DNA of 64,000 nucleotides from an archaeon (GTDB lineage Archaea; Nanobdellota; Nanobdellia; Pacearchaeales; GW2011-AR1), in the NCBI GenBank assembly GCA_030605415.1, contig JAUWIJ010000005.1, positions 2,375 through 66,374 on the forward strand, given 5' to 3'. The translations under genes and the position numbers were made by a program. Position 1 is the first letter of the stretch; every line of letters begins with the position of its first letter. This document shows positions 18,234 to 20,735 of this stretch, piece after piece. The notes under the pieces are model-generated. The model had not been told where the DNA came from and did not search any database. It saw only the letters and a program-made list of their open reading frames with translations.

Positions 18234-19601
18234 ATGGCTTTAAGGAATTTGTTGTATAATTTGCCTGAGGTTAGATCGCCGACGGAGAAGAAGGTTAGTT
18301 TTAATGTTAAGTTAAAATGGACGTTGGTTATTCTGGTTGGTTATTTTATTTTGGCGAATGTTCCGCTTTTTGGAATGGTCGAGGGTTCGATGTCGCGGTT
18401 TGAATATTTGGCTATTTTGCTTGGGACATCTTTTGGTTCGATTATTTCGTTGGGTATTGGTCCTATTGTTATGAGTTCAATTATTTTGCAGTTATTAAAA
18501 GGGGCGCAAATTTTGAATATTGATACAAATACTACTGAGGGTAAGCGATTTTTTCAGGCTATGCAAAAAGTTTTGGCGTTTGCGTTTGTAATTTTTGAGG
18601 CGATGGTTTATGTTTTAATGAAAGGTATTGAGGCTGAACCTGGGTTTGTCGGGCTTGTGATTTTCCAGTTGTGTCTTGGCGGTATTTTGATTATTTTTAT
18701 GGATGAGGTTGTTCAAAAATGGGGTTTCGGTTCTGGGGTTTCGTTGTTTATTGCGGCAGGTATTGGCTGGAGATTGTTTGCGCAGTTGTTCCAGTTTATT
18801 GGCATACAGGGAACTTTTGAGGCGAGCGGTAAGGTTTTAGCTTTGGTGGCATCTATTATTGTTGGAGATGGAACCGGTGCGGCGCGGGCTATCTTTCCTA
18901 TTATTGTTACCGCTGTTTTGTTTTTGATAGTTGTGTTTGCTCAGAGTTTGAAGGTTGAGGTTCCTTTGGCATTTGATAGAATCCGTGGTCATTCGGTTAA
19001 GTGGCCGTTGCAGTTTTTTTATGCTGGGGTTATTCCTGTAATTTTAGTTTCAGCTTTGGTTGCTAATTTGCAGTTGTTTGGTTCGTTGTTACAAAATTGG
19101 TTAGGTCATGCAACTTTCCTTGGGGGCTTCGGTTCCGGTGGACAGGCAATTTCAGGAATTGCATTTTGGATTGGTTCGACTCCTATTTTAGAGACAATTA
19201 TTACCGGAAGTTTTAGATGGATTTATGCCGGTCAGGCTTTTTTCCATGTTTTATTTTATGTAGTATTTTCTGTCTTGTTCTCTTTCTTTTGGGTTCAGAC
19301 TTCGGGTATGGACGCGAGAAGTCAGGCGAATAAGATTATCCATTCTGGGATGAGTATGCCCGGGTTTAGAAAAGACGAGAGAATTTTGGAGTCTATTTTG
19401 AAAAGGTATGTTGGGCCATTGACAATTATGGGTGGTGTTGCAATTGGTCTGTTGGCGTCGGTGGCGGATTTACTTGGTGCTTTGGTTGGCGGGACTGCTA
19501 TTCTTTTGGCGATTATGATTATGTATCAATTTTATCAAAATATCGCACAGCAACATGCGGTTGATATGAATCCGGCGCTCAAGGGATTTTTTGGGGCATG
19601 A
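18234..19601 (+). CDS. secY: preprotein translocase subunit SecY
   Basis: 10-TM profile, GIGPIVMSSIILQLL plug/TM2 motif, position after L15. Confidence 0.95.
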   Translation: MALRNLLYNLPEVRSPTEKKVSFNVKLKWTLVILVGYFILANVPLFGMVEGSMSRFEYLAILLGTSFGSIISLGIGPIVMSSIILQLLKGAQILNIDTNTTEGKRFFQAMQKVLAFAFVIFEAMVYVLMKGIEAEPGFVGLVIFQLCLGGILIIFMDEVVQKWGFGSGVSLFIAAGIGWRLFAQLFQFIGIQGTFEASGKVLALVASIIVGDGTGAARAIFPIIVTAVLFLIVVFAQSLKVEVPLAFDRIRGHSVKWPLQFFYAGVIPVILVSALVANLQLFGSLLQNWLGHATFLGGFGSGGQAISGIAFWIGSTPILETIITGSFRWIYAGQAFFHVLFYVVFSVLFSFFWVQTSGMDARSQANKIIHSGMSMPGFRKDERILESILKRYVGPLTIMGGVAIGLLASVADLLGALVGGTAILLAIMIMYQFYQNIAQQHAVDMNPALKGFFGA

Positions 19602-19700
19602 GCGCAGTTCGGAAAAGTTTTGCTTTTCCTGTGAGTGGTAAGTGTTTGAGTTCGCTTCGCTGTGAGTTAGGGCTTCGCCCGAGTTGGCGGGTAGGGAGAG
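19602..19700 (+). repeat. mosaic element variant using GTGAGT/GAGTT words
   Basis: CTGTGAGTGGTAAGTGTTTGAGTTCGCTTCGCTGTGAGTTAGGGCTTCGCCCGAGTTGG contains the family motif CGCTTCGCT. Confidence 0.6.
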
Positions 19701-19729
19701 TTTAAATATATTTGATGTGTTTCTGTTTT

Positions 19730-20089
19730 ATGTTTAATCCCAAGAGGCTGAAGGTGCTGAATAGAGCTATTGATTTGGTTGGGGAAGTTGTTCGGTTGAC
19801 AGATAAGTTTCCTGCTCGGGAAAGTTATGAGCTTGGGAGACAGATGAGGCGAGCTACGGAGAGTATTGGGTCTAATATTAGTGAGGGATGTAGTCGAGGA
19901 ATCAAGGAATATATTTATTTTTTGAAGGTTGCGATTGGGAGTGCTAATGAGCTGGAGGCACAGATTGAAATGGTTGGGAAGTTGAGGTATTTTAAAAATG
20001 GAGAAGAAGGGGAATTGAAGAATGAGGTTATTGAAATTAGGCGAATGCTTTTTGGGGTGATTAAGTTTTTGGAGAAGAAGGGAAAGTAG
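19730..20089 (+). CDS. four-helix-bundle protein of the 23S rRNA intervening-sequence protein (Avd-like) family
   Basis: LTDKFPARESYELGRQMRRATESIGSNISEG...AIGSANELEAQIEM matches the characteristic motif of this family. Confidence 0.75.
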   Translation: MFNPKRLKVLNRAIDLVGEVVRLTDKFPARESYELGRQMRRATESIGSNISEGCSRGIKEYIYFLKVAIGSANELEAQIEMVGKLRYFKNGEEGELKNEVIEIRRMLFGVIKFLEKKGK

Positions 20090-20101
20090 ATTTAAAAAGA
20101 A

Positions 20102-20578
20102 ATGATGTTAAGAATCAATATGGGATGTCATGTTTGCGAGATTGCTGAAAAGAAAAATGAGAAGGATTTAATTTTCGAAACTGATTTTTGGAGGATACTC
20201 CTTTCGTTTAATCAGAGATATCTTGGAAGATGCTTTATTTTCCCTAAGAGACATTTTGGCAATATGGCTGATATAACTAAAGAGGAAGTGTTGGATTTTC
20301 TTGAAGTTGTGAAAAAACTTGAGGGTGCTCTTAGAAAGGCGTTTAGAGCTACTATGTTTAATTGGATGTGTTTAATGAATAATTTTTATCAAAAAGAAAA
20401 CCCTAATCCACATTTGCATTGGCATATGAAGCCTCGGTATCGGGAGAAGGTTTTGTTTGCTGGAGAGATTTTTGATGATGGGGAGTTTGGACATCATTAT
20501 GATGATAGTAAAGATAAAGCGGTTGAGTCAAAAGATATGCGAGTTGCGATTGTCAAGGAGATTCAGAAAAATCTATAA
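20102..20578 (+). CDS. HIT-family nucleotide hydrolase/transferase
   Basis: Histidine triad NPHLHWHMKPR. Confidence 0.75.
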   Translation: MMLRINMGCHVCEIAEKKNEKDLIFETDFWRILLSFNQRYLGRCFIFPKRHFGNMADITKEEVLDFLEVVKKLEGALRKAFRATMFNWMCLMNNFYQKENPNPHLHWHMKPRYREKVLFAGEIFDDGEFGHHYDDSKDKAVESKDMRVAIVKEIQKNL

Positions 20579-20580
20579 CC

Positions 20581-20622
20581 TTGATATGAATCTGGTGCTG
20601 AAGGGATTTTTTGGGGCGTAGC
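20581..20622 (+). pseudogene. duplicated 3' end of secY (fragment)
   Basis: TTGATATGAATCTGGTGCTGAAGGGATTTTTTGGGGC matches 19561-19597 at 34 of 37 positions by hand alignment, exactly 1020 nt downstream. Confidence 0.8.
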
Positions 20623-20735
20623 GACGAGGAGTTCGGAGGGTCGGACGCTACCCTCACAGATATAAAAGAGAAACAGGTTGGGGCACGCTGTTCGCTGGTC
20701 GGATGGTCGGAGTTCGGAGAAAATTGGGGATTAAG
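20623..20735 (+). repeat. mosaic element copy (core-bearing) downstream of the secY duplicate
   Basis: GGTCGGACGC[TACCCTCACAGATATAAAAGAGAAACAGGTTGGGGCACGCTG]TTCGCTGGTCGGATGGTCGG. Confidence 0.9.

What the first reader, a model, noticed from the sequence alone, without database searches (positions are those of the whole stretch)
19561..20624. A cassette carrying an Avd-like four-helix-bundle gene and a HIT gene is bracketed by a duplicated secY 3' end
The last 37 nt of secY (19561-19597) recur at 20581-20617, exactly 1020 nt downstream (34 of 37 identical by hand). The copy is followed by a mosaic element and then the DUF106 gene, which normally follows the secY region. Between the copies lie an element-like GTGAGT-word segment, a gene of the 23S-rRNA-intervening-sequence-protein family (the fold family that includes DGR Avd) and a HIT hydrolase. 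That family is known for residing inside insertions in rRNA genes. Finding it in an insertion with target duplication in the r-protein operon suggests a shared lifestyle of invading highly expressed translation loci. No reverse transcriptase is visible in this window.
Basis: partly seen in the sequence, partly recalled or inferred. Interest (0 to 1): 0.65.

Follow-up and report, generated by a model that had tools for sequence, protein, structure and literature searches.

The report
Recombination scar beside secY in a DPANN archaeon
The duplicated end of secY is real, but it looks like the leftover of a recombination event that imported two small genes into a gene slot that varies between related archaea, and not like the footprint of a mobile element.

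Summary
19561-19597 recurs at 20581-20617 (34/37 identical, spacing 1020). No shuffle reproduces it, and it is present in two assemblies. Between the copies lie a hairpin and word-rich spacer, a PF05635/TIGR02436 four-helix-bundle gene (19730-20089) and a HIT gene (20120-20578).

The window is from a Pacearchaeota-like DPANN archaeon. Its closest relatives (SecY 98% and 96%) lack both genes. However, every close homologue of the Avd-like gene that I examined sits at secY-spacer-Avd-DUF106, and every close homologue of the HIT gene sits at secY-HIT-DUF106. None of these loci has a duplication. The secY-DUF106 gap is therefore a variable slot, not a transposition target.

The window's spacer and the last ~45 nt of its working secY resemble Avd-type lineages, not its nearest relatives. 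The downstream copy carries P->L and A->V changes at conserved residues, so it is a pseudo-copy.

Best reading (~0.6): a foreign allele came in through a homologous crossover in secY and an illegitimate joint after HIT, and pushed the resident secY end downstream. This resembles the orphan 3' ends in Rhs/CDI/T6SS loci.

There is no reverse transcriptase, TR/VR pair, integrase, terminal inverted repeat or viral counterpart.

Similar gene-end duplications recur in relatives at secY, SpoIIM and a glycosyltransferase gene. Interest is moderate.

The parts
18234..19601 (+). secY, the last conserved gene of the ribosomal-protein (spc-type) operon. Its last ~45 nt are of Avd-lineage type.
   Evidence: Pfam SecY E 1e-63. 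93% nt identity to L001 overall, but 8/51 differences in the last 51 nt against 89/1326 upstream, Fisher p=0.023. The last 41 nt differ at 3 positions from L083/L084 and at 7 from L001.
19561..19601 (+). Repeat copy A: the functional 3' end of secY (37-nt repeat plus GCA TGA).
19611..19629 (+). Hairpin just after the secY stop (GGAAAAGU-UUU-GCUUUUCC). A hairpin occupies the same position in L013, with a different stem sequence.
   Evidence: fold; L013 sequence (GGAAAAATC-AAC-GATTTTTCC); alignment
19602..19729 (+). Word-rich spacer (GTGAGTG-type words) ending in a TATA-like box, TTTAAATA at 19701-19708. It is homologous to the secY-Avd spacer of Avd-type relatives.
   Evidence: 89% identity over 107 nt to L085 and 97% over 37 nt to L083/L084. 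The first 18 nt after the stop are identical to L013/L096. No significant overall RNA fold (z -1.3).
19730..20089 (+). Avd-like four-helix-bundle gene (PF05635 / TIGR02436).
   Evidence: A profile of the family hits PDB 2GSC at E 1e-19. Nearest homologues are 73-78% identical, and every one I looked up is at the same slot.
20090..20119 (+). Avd-HIT spacer. TAGATTTAAAAAGA is identical to the Avd-stop plus DUF106-TATA junction of L013. 19 nt of unknown origin follow.
20120..20578 (+). HIT-family hydrolase gene (an alternative upstream ATG lies at 20102).
   Evidence: Pfam HIT E 3e-10. PDB HIT proteins match at E 5e-8. Homologues of 63-73% identity all start 1 nt after the secY stop and are followed by DUF106 or the contig end, in L177 with one extra ORF between.
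20581..20621 (+). Repeat copy A': the displaced pseudo-copy of the secY 3' end, with its own stop (TAG). It starts 2 nt after the HIT stop.
   Evidence: It has Pro->Leu (CCG->CTG) and Ala->Val (GCG->GTG) at positions where all listed secY ends of relatives have Pro and all but one have Ala.
20622..20726 (+). Mosaic intergenic element (core TACCCTCACAGATATAAAAGAGAAACAGGTTGGGGCA flanked by GTTCGG/GGTCGG words). It belongs to an 8-copy family in the window and is probably the resident spacer.
   Evidence: D1, D3. A similar core is visible in the L002 spacer. No significant fold.
20727..21163 (+). Resident DUF106/EMC3-like (YidC-like insertase) gene with its TATA box (TTTAAAAAG, 20736-20744). Homology to L001 resumes here.

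Best explanation
The gap between secY and the DUF106 insertase gene is a variable 'slot' in this group of Pacearchaeota-like archaea. Different lineages carry different things there: nothing, an Avd-like gene behind a characteristic spacer, a HIT gene packed directly against the secY stop, or other small genes.

In the window's lineage a foreign allele of this slot was taken up from a related lineage. The allele consisted of the secY 3' end, a hairpin and spacer, the Avd-like gene with its promoter, and the HIT gene.

On the left it was integrated by homologous recombination inside the last ~50-70 nt of secY. On the right it was joined illegitimately, 2 nt after the HIT stop, to the resident secY at position -40. 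The resident 3' end of secY was therefore not replaced. It was pushed ~1 kb downstream, where it now decays as the copy at 20581-20621.

The mechanism is of the homology-facilitated illegitimate recombination (HFIR) type. The 'target duplication' is a recombination scar, not the signature of a transposase or integrase.

Shown:
- The repeat is real.
- The nearest genomes lack the insert.
- Both genes reside in this slot in relatives.
- The spacer and the secY end are of Avd-lineage origin.
- The downstream copy is degenerate.

Inferred:
- That a single event brought both genes.
- The direction of the event and the HFIR mechanism.

The two genes have their own TATA-like boxes and are probably ordinary accessory genes: a HIT nucleotide hydrolase and a four-helix-bundle protein of unknown role. 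Neither was shown to take part in the insertion.
For: 1. Nearest genomes L001 and L002 (SecY 98% and 96% aa) lack the insert, and the window is sister to L001 in a SecY tree.
2. All five Avd-like genes in about 0.9 Mb of secY loci lie between secY and DUF106. All looked-up close homologues of Avd and of HIT occupy the same slot, one gene per locus, without a duplication.
3. The window's spacer is homologous to that of Avd-type loci: 89% over 107 nt to L085, and TGA plus GCGCAGTTCGGAAAA shared with L013/L096. The L001 and L002 spacers are unrelated to it.
4. The working secY end is 3/41 different from L083/L084 but 7/41 from L001. The last 51 nt carry an excess of differences to L001 (p=0.023).
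5. A' has two replacements at residues conserved in relatives, so it is not under SecY selection.
6. A' is followed by a mosaic spacer of the genome's own repeat family, a version of which L002 also has.
7. The same anatomy recurs at other gene ends and in both polarities. At the secY 3' end: L040, L028, L073. At the SpoIIM 3' end: L026 (2054-nt insert with peptide, radical-SAM-like and 218-aa ORFs), L023, L028. At the 5' end of the GT4 gene: L008. The boundaries at secY differ between events.
8. Deletions in the slot also occur. L005 keeps about 15 nt of a HIT 3' end, and L001 keeps an L015-type Avd spacer without the ORF.
9. There is a precedent for 3'-end displacement by HFIR in T6SS, Rhs and CDI loci (PMC5361080).
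Against: - No donor with secY-spacer-Avd-HIT in one locus was found. The nearest Avd is only 78% identical and the nearest HIT 73%.
- Strictly diagnostic sites in secY give only one Avd-type site in the last 70 nt, and 4 scattered Avd-type sites elsewhere among 30. The crossover is therefore weakly resolved.
- A' is not clearly closer to L001 or L002 than to other lineages: 8-9 differences, against 5 to L008/L085 and 6 to A.
- Microhomology at the right joint cannot be assessed without the donor.
- HFIR has been demonstrated in transformable bacteria, not in DPANN archaea.
- The left edge of 6 of 7 gene-end duplications lies 1-5 nt before an in-frame ATG. Random illegitimate joining does not predict this.
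Confidence: 0.6

Rival explanations
1. Site-specific integration. A small non-autonomous circular cassette carrying an attP-like copy of the secY 3' end was integrated by an integrase acting in trans. This would leave attL and attR, i.e. the two copies.
For: A direct repeat of 37-41 nt overlapping the 3' end of a conserved gene, with the gene end restored, is the classic attL/attR picture. Three SpoIIM 3'-end duplications in different lineages share the same left boundary. A XerC/D-like recombinase ORF lies at 62066-62884 in the window; I judged this from its sequence only and did not run it against a family library.
Against: There is no integrase in or next to the cassette. The duplication boundaries at secY differ between events: -40, -92, -24, -22. 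A mirror-image 5'-end case exists. The pattern has no match in viral contigs, and no HIT relative was found there. The cassette genes are never seen elsewhere than this slot. The repeat is not palindromic or dif-like (direct reading of the sequence).
Confidence: 0.15
2. Local duplication. An ancestor already had secY-spacer-Avd-HIT-DUF106. Replication slippage or unequal crossing-over duplicated the segment from -40 of secY onward, and most of the second copy was later deleted, leaving A'.
For: Pure tandem duplications of the secY end plus 3' UTR exist in L028 and L073 (52-54-nt units, 2-3 copies). This shows the region is prone to slippage.
Against: It needs two steps. The nearest relatives lack both genes. 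It does not explain the Avd-lineage character of the working secY end. The sequence after A' (mosaic) is unlike the sequence after A.
Confidence: 0.1
3. Transposition or retro-insertion with a long target-site duplication, for example cDNA-mediated insertion helped by the Avd-like protein.
For: The family is related to DGR Avd (PMC10053308) and resides in rRNA insertions. The duplication edges lie next to ATG, which could fit transcript-derived ends.
Against: The window has no reverse transcriptase, no TR/VR pair and no adenine-specific mismatch pattern. There are no terminal inverted repeats. The window holds no other copy of the gene. Relatives carry the gene at this slot without a duplication.
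Confidence: 0.05
4. The downstream copy is kept for a function, such as a 12-codon mini-ORF or an RNA element that couples HIT to DUF106 expression.
For: The copy keeps ATG...stop intact. The SpoIIM copies also keep an intact mini-ORF, one of them behind a GGAGG motif.
Against: No other Avd-type or HIT-type locus has it. Two radical replacements have occurred in it. It has no significant RNA fold (z +1.2).
Confidence: 0.05
5. Assembly artefact.
For: None found.
Against: Two assemblies from different pipelines are 100% identical across both junctions. The repeat is imperfect and shorter than a read.
Confidence: 0.02

Closest known systems
Orphan 3' ends in Rhs, CdiA and T6SS effector-immunity arrays (displacement by homology-facilitated illegitimate recombination; PMC5361080 and references therein)
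   Same: Incoming DNA shares a conserved upstream anchor with the resident gene. The new 3' end plus cargo goes in, and the old 3' end is shifted downstream as a non-functional remnant. Repeated events give arrays.
   Different: Here the anchor gene is an essential housekeeping gene (secY) at the end of a ribosomal-protein operon in a DPANN archaeon. The new and old ends encode the same peptide. The cargo is not a toxin-immunity pair. The mechanism has not been shown experimentally in archaea.
attL/attR of integrative elements inserted in the 3' end of tRNA or protein genes
   Same: A direct repeat of tens of bases overlaps a gene's 3' end, and the gene is restored by the upstream copy.
   Different: No integrase, a cassette of only about 1 kb, imperfect repeats, variable boundaries between events, and no extrachromosomal counterpart found.
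23S rRNA intervening sequences that carry a PF05635 ORF
   Same: Same protein family (PF05635/TIGR02436). A small ORF sits in the sense orientation inside a very highly expressed translation-related transcription unit and is flanked by heptamer 'word' sequence.
   Different: In the rRNA case the ORF lies inside the rRNA gene. In the one locus I inspected (L112) the flanking heptamer arrays are near reverse complements of each other; that such arrays pair and the IVS is excised from the RNA comes from the literature, not from a test here. In the window the gene lies between protein genes, has its own TATA box, and has word sequence upstream only, with no significant fold.
DGR accessory variability determinant (Avd)
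   Same: Related small helical-bundle family according to CDD and structure comparison (PMC10053308). A profile of this clade hits PDB 2GSC, for which five chains are on record.
   Different: No reverse transcriptase, template/variable repeats or target gene in 64 kb. The profile did not reach bAvd (4DWL) by sequence at E<=0.01.
Integron gene cassettes
   Same: Small, mostly single-gene units accumulate at one fixed site downstream of a conserved locus.
   Different: No attC-like imperfect palindrome, no integrase, and each gene has its own promoter.

Membership tests
PF05635 / TIGR02436 four-helix-bundle ('23S rRNA IVS protein', Avd-like) family | Sequence match above the curated thresholds | tested here: met
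   Pfam 98.7 bits (cut-off 33.8); TIGR02436 99.2 bits (cut-off 24). Profile hits PDB 2GSC at E 1e-19.
PF05635 / TIGR02436 four-helix-bundle ('23S rRNA IVS protein', Avd-like) family | Residence inside an rRNA intervening sequence flanked by pairing repeats | tested here: not met
   The gene lies between secY and HIT. Rfam finds no rRNA there; the only rRNA in the window is 5S at 47287. No inverted repeat brackets it.
Diversity-generating retroelement (Avd as accessory) | Adjacent reverse transcriptase | tested here: not met
   No RT-like ORF in 64 kb. One YCDD motif occurs in a 278-aa ORF with a hydrophobic, signal-peptide-like N-terminus (53192-54028); I did not scan it against a family library. 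The rest of the genome was not available.
Diversity-generating retroelement (Avd as accessory) | Template/variable repeat pair with adenine-specific differences | tested here: not met
   The only long repeats are intergenic mosaic elements, and their mismatch spectra are not adenine-specific.
Transposable element with target-site duplication | Transposase gene and terminal inverted repeats | tested here: not met
   The cassette ORFs are Avd-like and HIT only. No terminal inverted repeats.
Transposable element with target-site duplication | Copies of the same unit at unrelated loci | tested here: not met
   No second copy in the window or in 80 relatives' secY loci. All close homologues looked up are at the same slot. 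One distant paralogue (43%) lies between SpoIIM and GT4 in L099.
Integrative element (attL/attR) | Direct repeats overlapping the target gene's 3' end | tested here: met
Integrative element (attL/attR) | Integrase within the element, or an extrachromosomal attP form | tested here: not met
   No integrase between the repeats. No match to the site in IMG/VR contigs. Plasmid or circular forms in the same sample could not be tested.
3'-end displacement by homology-facilitated illegitimate recombination | The new 3' end and cargo are phylogenetically discordant with the body of the anchor gene | tested here: met
   Spacer and Avd are of L083/L085/L013 type. The last 41 nt of secY are 3 differences from L083/L084 against 7 from L001. 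Excess divergence from L001 in the last 51 nt, p=0.023. The support is moderate.
3'-end displacement by homology-facilitated illegitimate recombination | The old 3' end is retained downstream as a decaying orphan | tested here: met
   A' has P->L and A->V at conserved residues and is followed by resident-type spacer.
3'-end displacement by homology-facilitated illegitimate recombination | Microhomology at the illegitimate joint, and an identified donor | not testable with these tools
   No donor with Avd plus HIT was found in GTDB representatives, metagenome contigs or the protein collection.

The most novel reading that the evidence does not exclude
Pacearchaeota-like archaea may have a dedicated, still unknown way of shuffling ORF-sized cassettes into stop/start junctions of highly expressed operons. 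Its hallmark would be a duplicated gene end whose edge lies at an ATGA or TRATG motif (seen in 6 of 7 events at secY and SpoIIM). It could be transcript- or cDNA-mediated, and the Avd-like four-helix-bundle protein could take part, which would link this to the family's presence in rRNA insertions and in DGRs.
Probability: 0.07. Interest if true: 0.8.

Novelty: new member of a known kind. Interest (0 to 1): 0.4.

Why it matters
If the reading is right, the end of the archaeal ribosomal-protein/secY operon serves as an exchange slot in DPANN archaea. Small accessory genes are swapped there between lineages by recombination, and displaced gene ends record those events. That would give a practical marker for tracing gene flow in uncultivated, streamlined archaea.

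It would also extend the 'orphan 3' end' phenomenon, known from bacterial toxin loci, to an essential housekeeping gene in archaea.

It shows that the PF05635 (Avd-like) family has a second conserved home in a translation-related transcription unit besides rRNA intervening sequences. That is a useful clue to the unknown function of the non-DGR members. It does not reveal a new mobile element or a DGR.

Tried and rejected
- Assembly artefact: rejected. Two assemblies are 100% identical across both junctions.
- Chance repeat: rejected.
- DGR: no reverse transcriptase, no TR/VR pair.
- Transposon: no terminal inverted repeats, no transposase.
- Structured RNA in the spacer or in A' plus the mosaic: z-scores of -1.3, +1.2 and +1.4, so not significant. 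Rfam finds nothing in the region.
- Decayed secY end upstream of HIT, as would be expected if HIT had come from a HIT-type locus together with its secY end: only 8/21 matches by eye, so not supported.
- Further secY homology upstream of A' inside HIT: only an out-of-register 20-mer, which is chance (D5).
- Origin of A' from sequence distances: inconclusive. It differs by 5-9 positions from all candidates.
- Strict diagnostic-site mapping of the crossover: only one informative site near the end.
- Viral or plasmid-like carrier: no match to the att-like pattern and no HIT relative in IMG/VR.
- Defence-system link: PADLOC gives only a generic HIT hit (ThsC-like, E 5e-6) and nothing for the Avd-like protein.
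- Other gene-end duplications in the window: none.
- Pfam identities for ten small extra ORFs of the ribosomal-protein operons: none found.
- First literature search (Avd / IVS / four helix bundle): returned nothing useful.
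Full report
**1. What is there**

The window (GC 35.7%) carries an archaeal ribosomal-protein operon that ends L30-L15-[two small ORFs]-secY. Its relatives are MAGs labelled Pacearchaeota, Woesearchaeota or Nanoarchaeota.

The repeat is as described. 19561-19597 and 20581-20617 are 34/37 identical, 1020 nt apart. 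There are only two matches in the window and none in 100 shuffles. It is the only gene-end duplication among the window's predicted genes (score 59; mean 22.2, sd 4.2).

The copy keeps the secY frame and a stop codon (DMNLVLKGFFGA*).

The following lie between the copies:
- A hairpin directly after the secY stop (19611-19629).
- A spacer rich in GTGAGTG-type words, ending in a TATA-like box (19701-19708).
- A PF05635/TIGR02436 gene (19730-20089).
- A second TATA-like box (20091-20098).
- A HIT gene (20120-20578).

After the copy come a mosaic element that belongs to an 8-copy family of the window and then the DUF106/EMC3-like gene with its own TATA box.

Two assemblies made by different pipelines are 100% identical across both junctions.

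**2. Relatives**

I fetched 80 secY loci from GTDB species representatives.

- The two closest, L001 (SecY 98% aa) and L002 (96%), go from secY to DUF106 in 164-209 nt.
- Homology of the window to L001 stops at 19597 and resumes at 20727. So 1129 nt in the window stand where L001 has 130 nt.
- In a SecY neighbour-joining tree the window is sister to L001, then L002, then L003.

The segment is therefore an insertion relative to the nearest genomes.

The gap is variable across the whole group:
- L009 and L021 have only HIT there.
- L013, L015, L016 and L022 have only an Avd-like gene.
- L038 has a pair of small ORFs that looks like a toxin-antitoxin pair.
- L079 has a 263-aa ORF that reads like a glycosyltransferase.
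- Others have unknown small ORFs.

The identities of the L038 and L079 ORFs are my reading of the translations, not family searches.

**3. Are the genes mobile?**

A profile of the Avd-like proteins finds only five genes in all 80 loci plus the window, and all five lie between secY and DUF106.

In the 5.8-billion-protein collection the nearest Avd homologues are 61-78% identical and the nearest HIT homologues 63-73% identical.

- Every Avd contig I looked up shows secY-spacer-Avd-DUF106: L083-L086, L095-L097 and L099.
- Every HIT contig I looked up has HIT starting 1 nt after the secY stop: L087-L094 and L175-L178. Where the contig reaches that far, its stop abuts the DUF106 TATA box; L177 has one extra ORF between.
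- A 55% HIT homologue lies in an unrelated context.

No locus has both genes, and none has a second secY end. The two genes are thus long-term residents of this slot in different lineages, not elements that turn up at different places.

**4. Where the window's segment came from**

- The spacer 19602-19729 is homologous to the spacer of Avd-type loci: 89% over 107 nt to L085 and 97% over 37 nt to L083/L084. The first 18 nt after the stop, including the TGA, are identical to L013 and L096.
- The sequence after the Avd stop (TAGATTTAAAAAGA) is identical to L013, where it is the TATA box of DUF106.
- The last 41 nt of the working secY differ at 3 positions from L083/L084 but at 7 from L001. This is so although the gene as a whole is 93% identical to L001 and about 80% identical to Avd-type lineages (L013, L015, L016).
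- The last 51 nt carry 8 differences to L001, against 89 in the 1326 nt upstream (Fisher p=0.023).
- Strictly diagnostic sites are few. One Avd-type site lies in the last 70 nt, and the site at -69 is of native type. The crossover is therefore placed only roughly, between -69 and -18.
- The downstream copy has CCG->CTG (Pro->Leu) and GCG->GTG (Ala->Val). At those positions all listed relatives have Pro and all but one have Ala. It is a pseudo-copy.
- The downstream copy is followed by a mosaic spacer of the genome's own family, a version of which is visible in L002.

**5. Mechanism**

The simplest account is import of a foreign slot allele with a homologous left crossover in the secY 3' end and an illegitimate right joint 2 nt after the HIT stop, at -40 of the resident secY. 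The resident end is displaced, not replaced.

This is the logic proposed for orphan 3' ends in T6SS effector-immunity arrays and in Rhs and CDI loci, namely homology-facilitated illegitimate recombination (PMC5361080).

The following features argue against a dedicated integrase or transposase:
- No such gene lies in the cassette, and there are no terminal inverted repeats.
- The site has no match and HIT has no relative in viral contigs.
- The boundaries differ between independent secY events.
- A mirror-image case exists at a gene's 5' end.

**6. The same anatomy elsewhere**

I scanned 1221 predicted genes in the 80 loci plus the window. Terminal 3'-end duplications occur only at secY and at SpoIIM:

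- secY: the window; L040 (92 nt, 91/92 identical, with 137 nt between); L028 and L073 (tandem 52-54-nt units).
- SpoIIM: L026 (35 nt bracketing a 2054-nt insert that holds a Cys-rich 59-aa ORF, a 348-aa ORF that reads like a radical-SAM enzyme by its cysteine motif, and a 218-aa ORF); L023 (99-nt insert); L028 (56-nt insert).

L008 has a duplication of about 110 nt covering the promoter and first 70 nt of the GT4 gene, around a short non-coding insert of roughly 150-190 nt. No such duplications were seen at the 3' ends of DUF106, IF-2B, L15 or GT4.

Deletion also occurs in the slot. The L005 spacer keeps about 15 nt that match the HIT 3' end of its sister L009. The 'empty' spacer of L001 is homologous to the L015-type secY-Avd spacer, including its terminator-like hairpin, but lacks the ORF. 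The short inserts between duplicated ends may therefore be what remains after a cassette is lost.

One feature is unexplained. In 6 of 7 events the left edge of the duplication lies 1-5 nt before an in-frame ATG, in an ATGA or TRATG context. These are the motifs that also form the stop/start overlaps between neighbouring genes in this operon. This is a post-hoc observation.

**7.

PF05635 is the Avd-related family (PMC10053308). It is known in rRNA insertions of CPR bacteria (bioRxiv 10.1101/2024.02.27.582315).

In my own sample, 25 of 77 distant homologue loci lie inside bacterial 23S rRNA genes. Several of these have heptamer arrays on both sides of the ORF.

The parallel is real: a small sense-oriented ORF in a very highly expressed, translation-related transcription unit. 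But in this archaeal clade the gene is a stable slot resident, and the duplication is specific to one lineage.

The window contains no reverse transcriptase and no template/variable repeat pair.

**8. Verdict**

The best explanation is a recombination scar from allele import into a variable slot (confidence about 0.6). Site-specific integration in trans (0.15) and local duplication (0.10) are the main rivals.

This is a new instance, in an archaeal housekeeping operon, of a known kind of event. Interest is moderate (0.4).

From general knowledge and not tested here: in many archaea adenylate kinase follows secY and precedes the DUF106 gene. The slot may therefore be the vacated adk position, now filled in some lineages by another nucleotide-binding enzyme (HIT).

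Noticed in passing
L026:10981-13106; L023:9815-9983; L028:8775-8905; L040:1355-1675; L008:11690-12090: Gene-end duplications that bracket inserts recur in relatives. SpoIIM 3' end: a 2054-nt insert in L026 holding a Cys-rich peptide ORF, a radical-SAM-like ORF and a 218-aa ORF, plus 99-nt and 56-nt inserts in L023 and L028. secY 3' end: a 92-nt duplication in L040. GT4 5' end: a duplication of about 110 nt in L008. In 6 of 7 3'-end events the duplication starts 1-5 nt before an in-frame ATG (ATGA or TRATG).
   Followed up: partly
window 17603-18195: Two overlapping small ORFs (17650-17907 and 17904-18194, joined by an ATGA overlap) lie between L15 and secY. They are absent from L001, which has 19 nt there. 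The layout resembles a toxin-antitoxin pair, but they have no significant Pfam, NCBIfam or PADLOC match.
   Followed up: partly
window 6250-6318, 10109-10177, 12871-12939, 16677-16745, 20626-20694, 43162-43230, 63296-63364 (and a weaker copy at 15298-15366): An intergenic mosaic element with core TACCCTCACAGATATAAAGGAGAAACAGGTTGGGGCA. All copies are on the + strand, mostly 50-110 nt upstream of genes of the ribosomal-protein operon. It contains a TATA-like ATATAAAG. Rfam finds nothing and the fold is not significant.
   Followed up: partly
window 2236-2354, 12879-12894, 21177-21208, 49863-49897, 54346-54431, 57423-57472, 61708-61731, 63499-63523: Many intergenic arrays of 7-nt words (ATTTGGG, TTCGGTG, CAGAACT, AGTTGGT, TCTGAGT). 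They recall the heptamer STRR repeats of cyanobacteria. Similar heptamer arrays flank PF05635 ORFs inside bacterial 23S rRNA genes (L112, L145, L136, L158).
   Followed up: partly
window 3832-3890 and 7917-7975; L001:2883-2920 and 4185-4248; L076 (three sites): A 59-nt coding module (APKGVPPAQMAS...DKVG) occurs inside the L3 gene and, 88% identical, in the N-terminal extension of the L22 gene. In L001 a neighbouring stretch of that same L22 start region (window 7854-7921) recurs at the starts of other ribosomal-protein genes, and L076 repeats a similar coding motif. These look like short extension modules shared or moved between ribosomal-protein genes.
   Followed up: no
window 4464-4742, 5544-5963, 7155-7466, 10218-10577, 13364-13552, 15568-15819, 57509-57814, 58968-59210: Small extra ORFs (62-139 aa) are wedged between ribosomal-protein genes, often by 1- or 4-nt stop/start overlaps. 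None has a Pfam match. L001 has no homologous sequence at two of these positions (13364-13552, 15568-15819).
   Followed up: partly
L099:1-3214: One Pacearchaeota-like contig has an Avd-like gene before DUF106 whose last 20 residues are identical to the window's. It also has a second, 43%-identical PF05635 paralogue between SpoIIM and GT4, which is the other slot where gene-end duplications occur.
   Followed up: no
L001:7369-7494 against L015:7378-7500; L005:1435-1460: 'Empty' slots keep traces of lost genes. The L001 spacer is homologous to the L015-type secY-Avd spacer (hairpin GGYAAC-TTYG-TTGCC plus a T-run) but has no Avd ORF. The L005 spacer retains about 15 nt that match the 3' end of the HIT gene of its sister L009.
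   Followed up: partly
window 46329-46414: Rfam calls a tRNA here (54 bits) that ARAGORN does not report. It may contain an intron or be atypical. It lies in a cluster of three tRNA genes (46329-46838), with a 5S rRNA gene about 450 nt further on (47287-47398).
   Followed up: no
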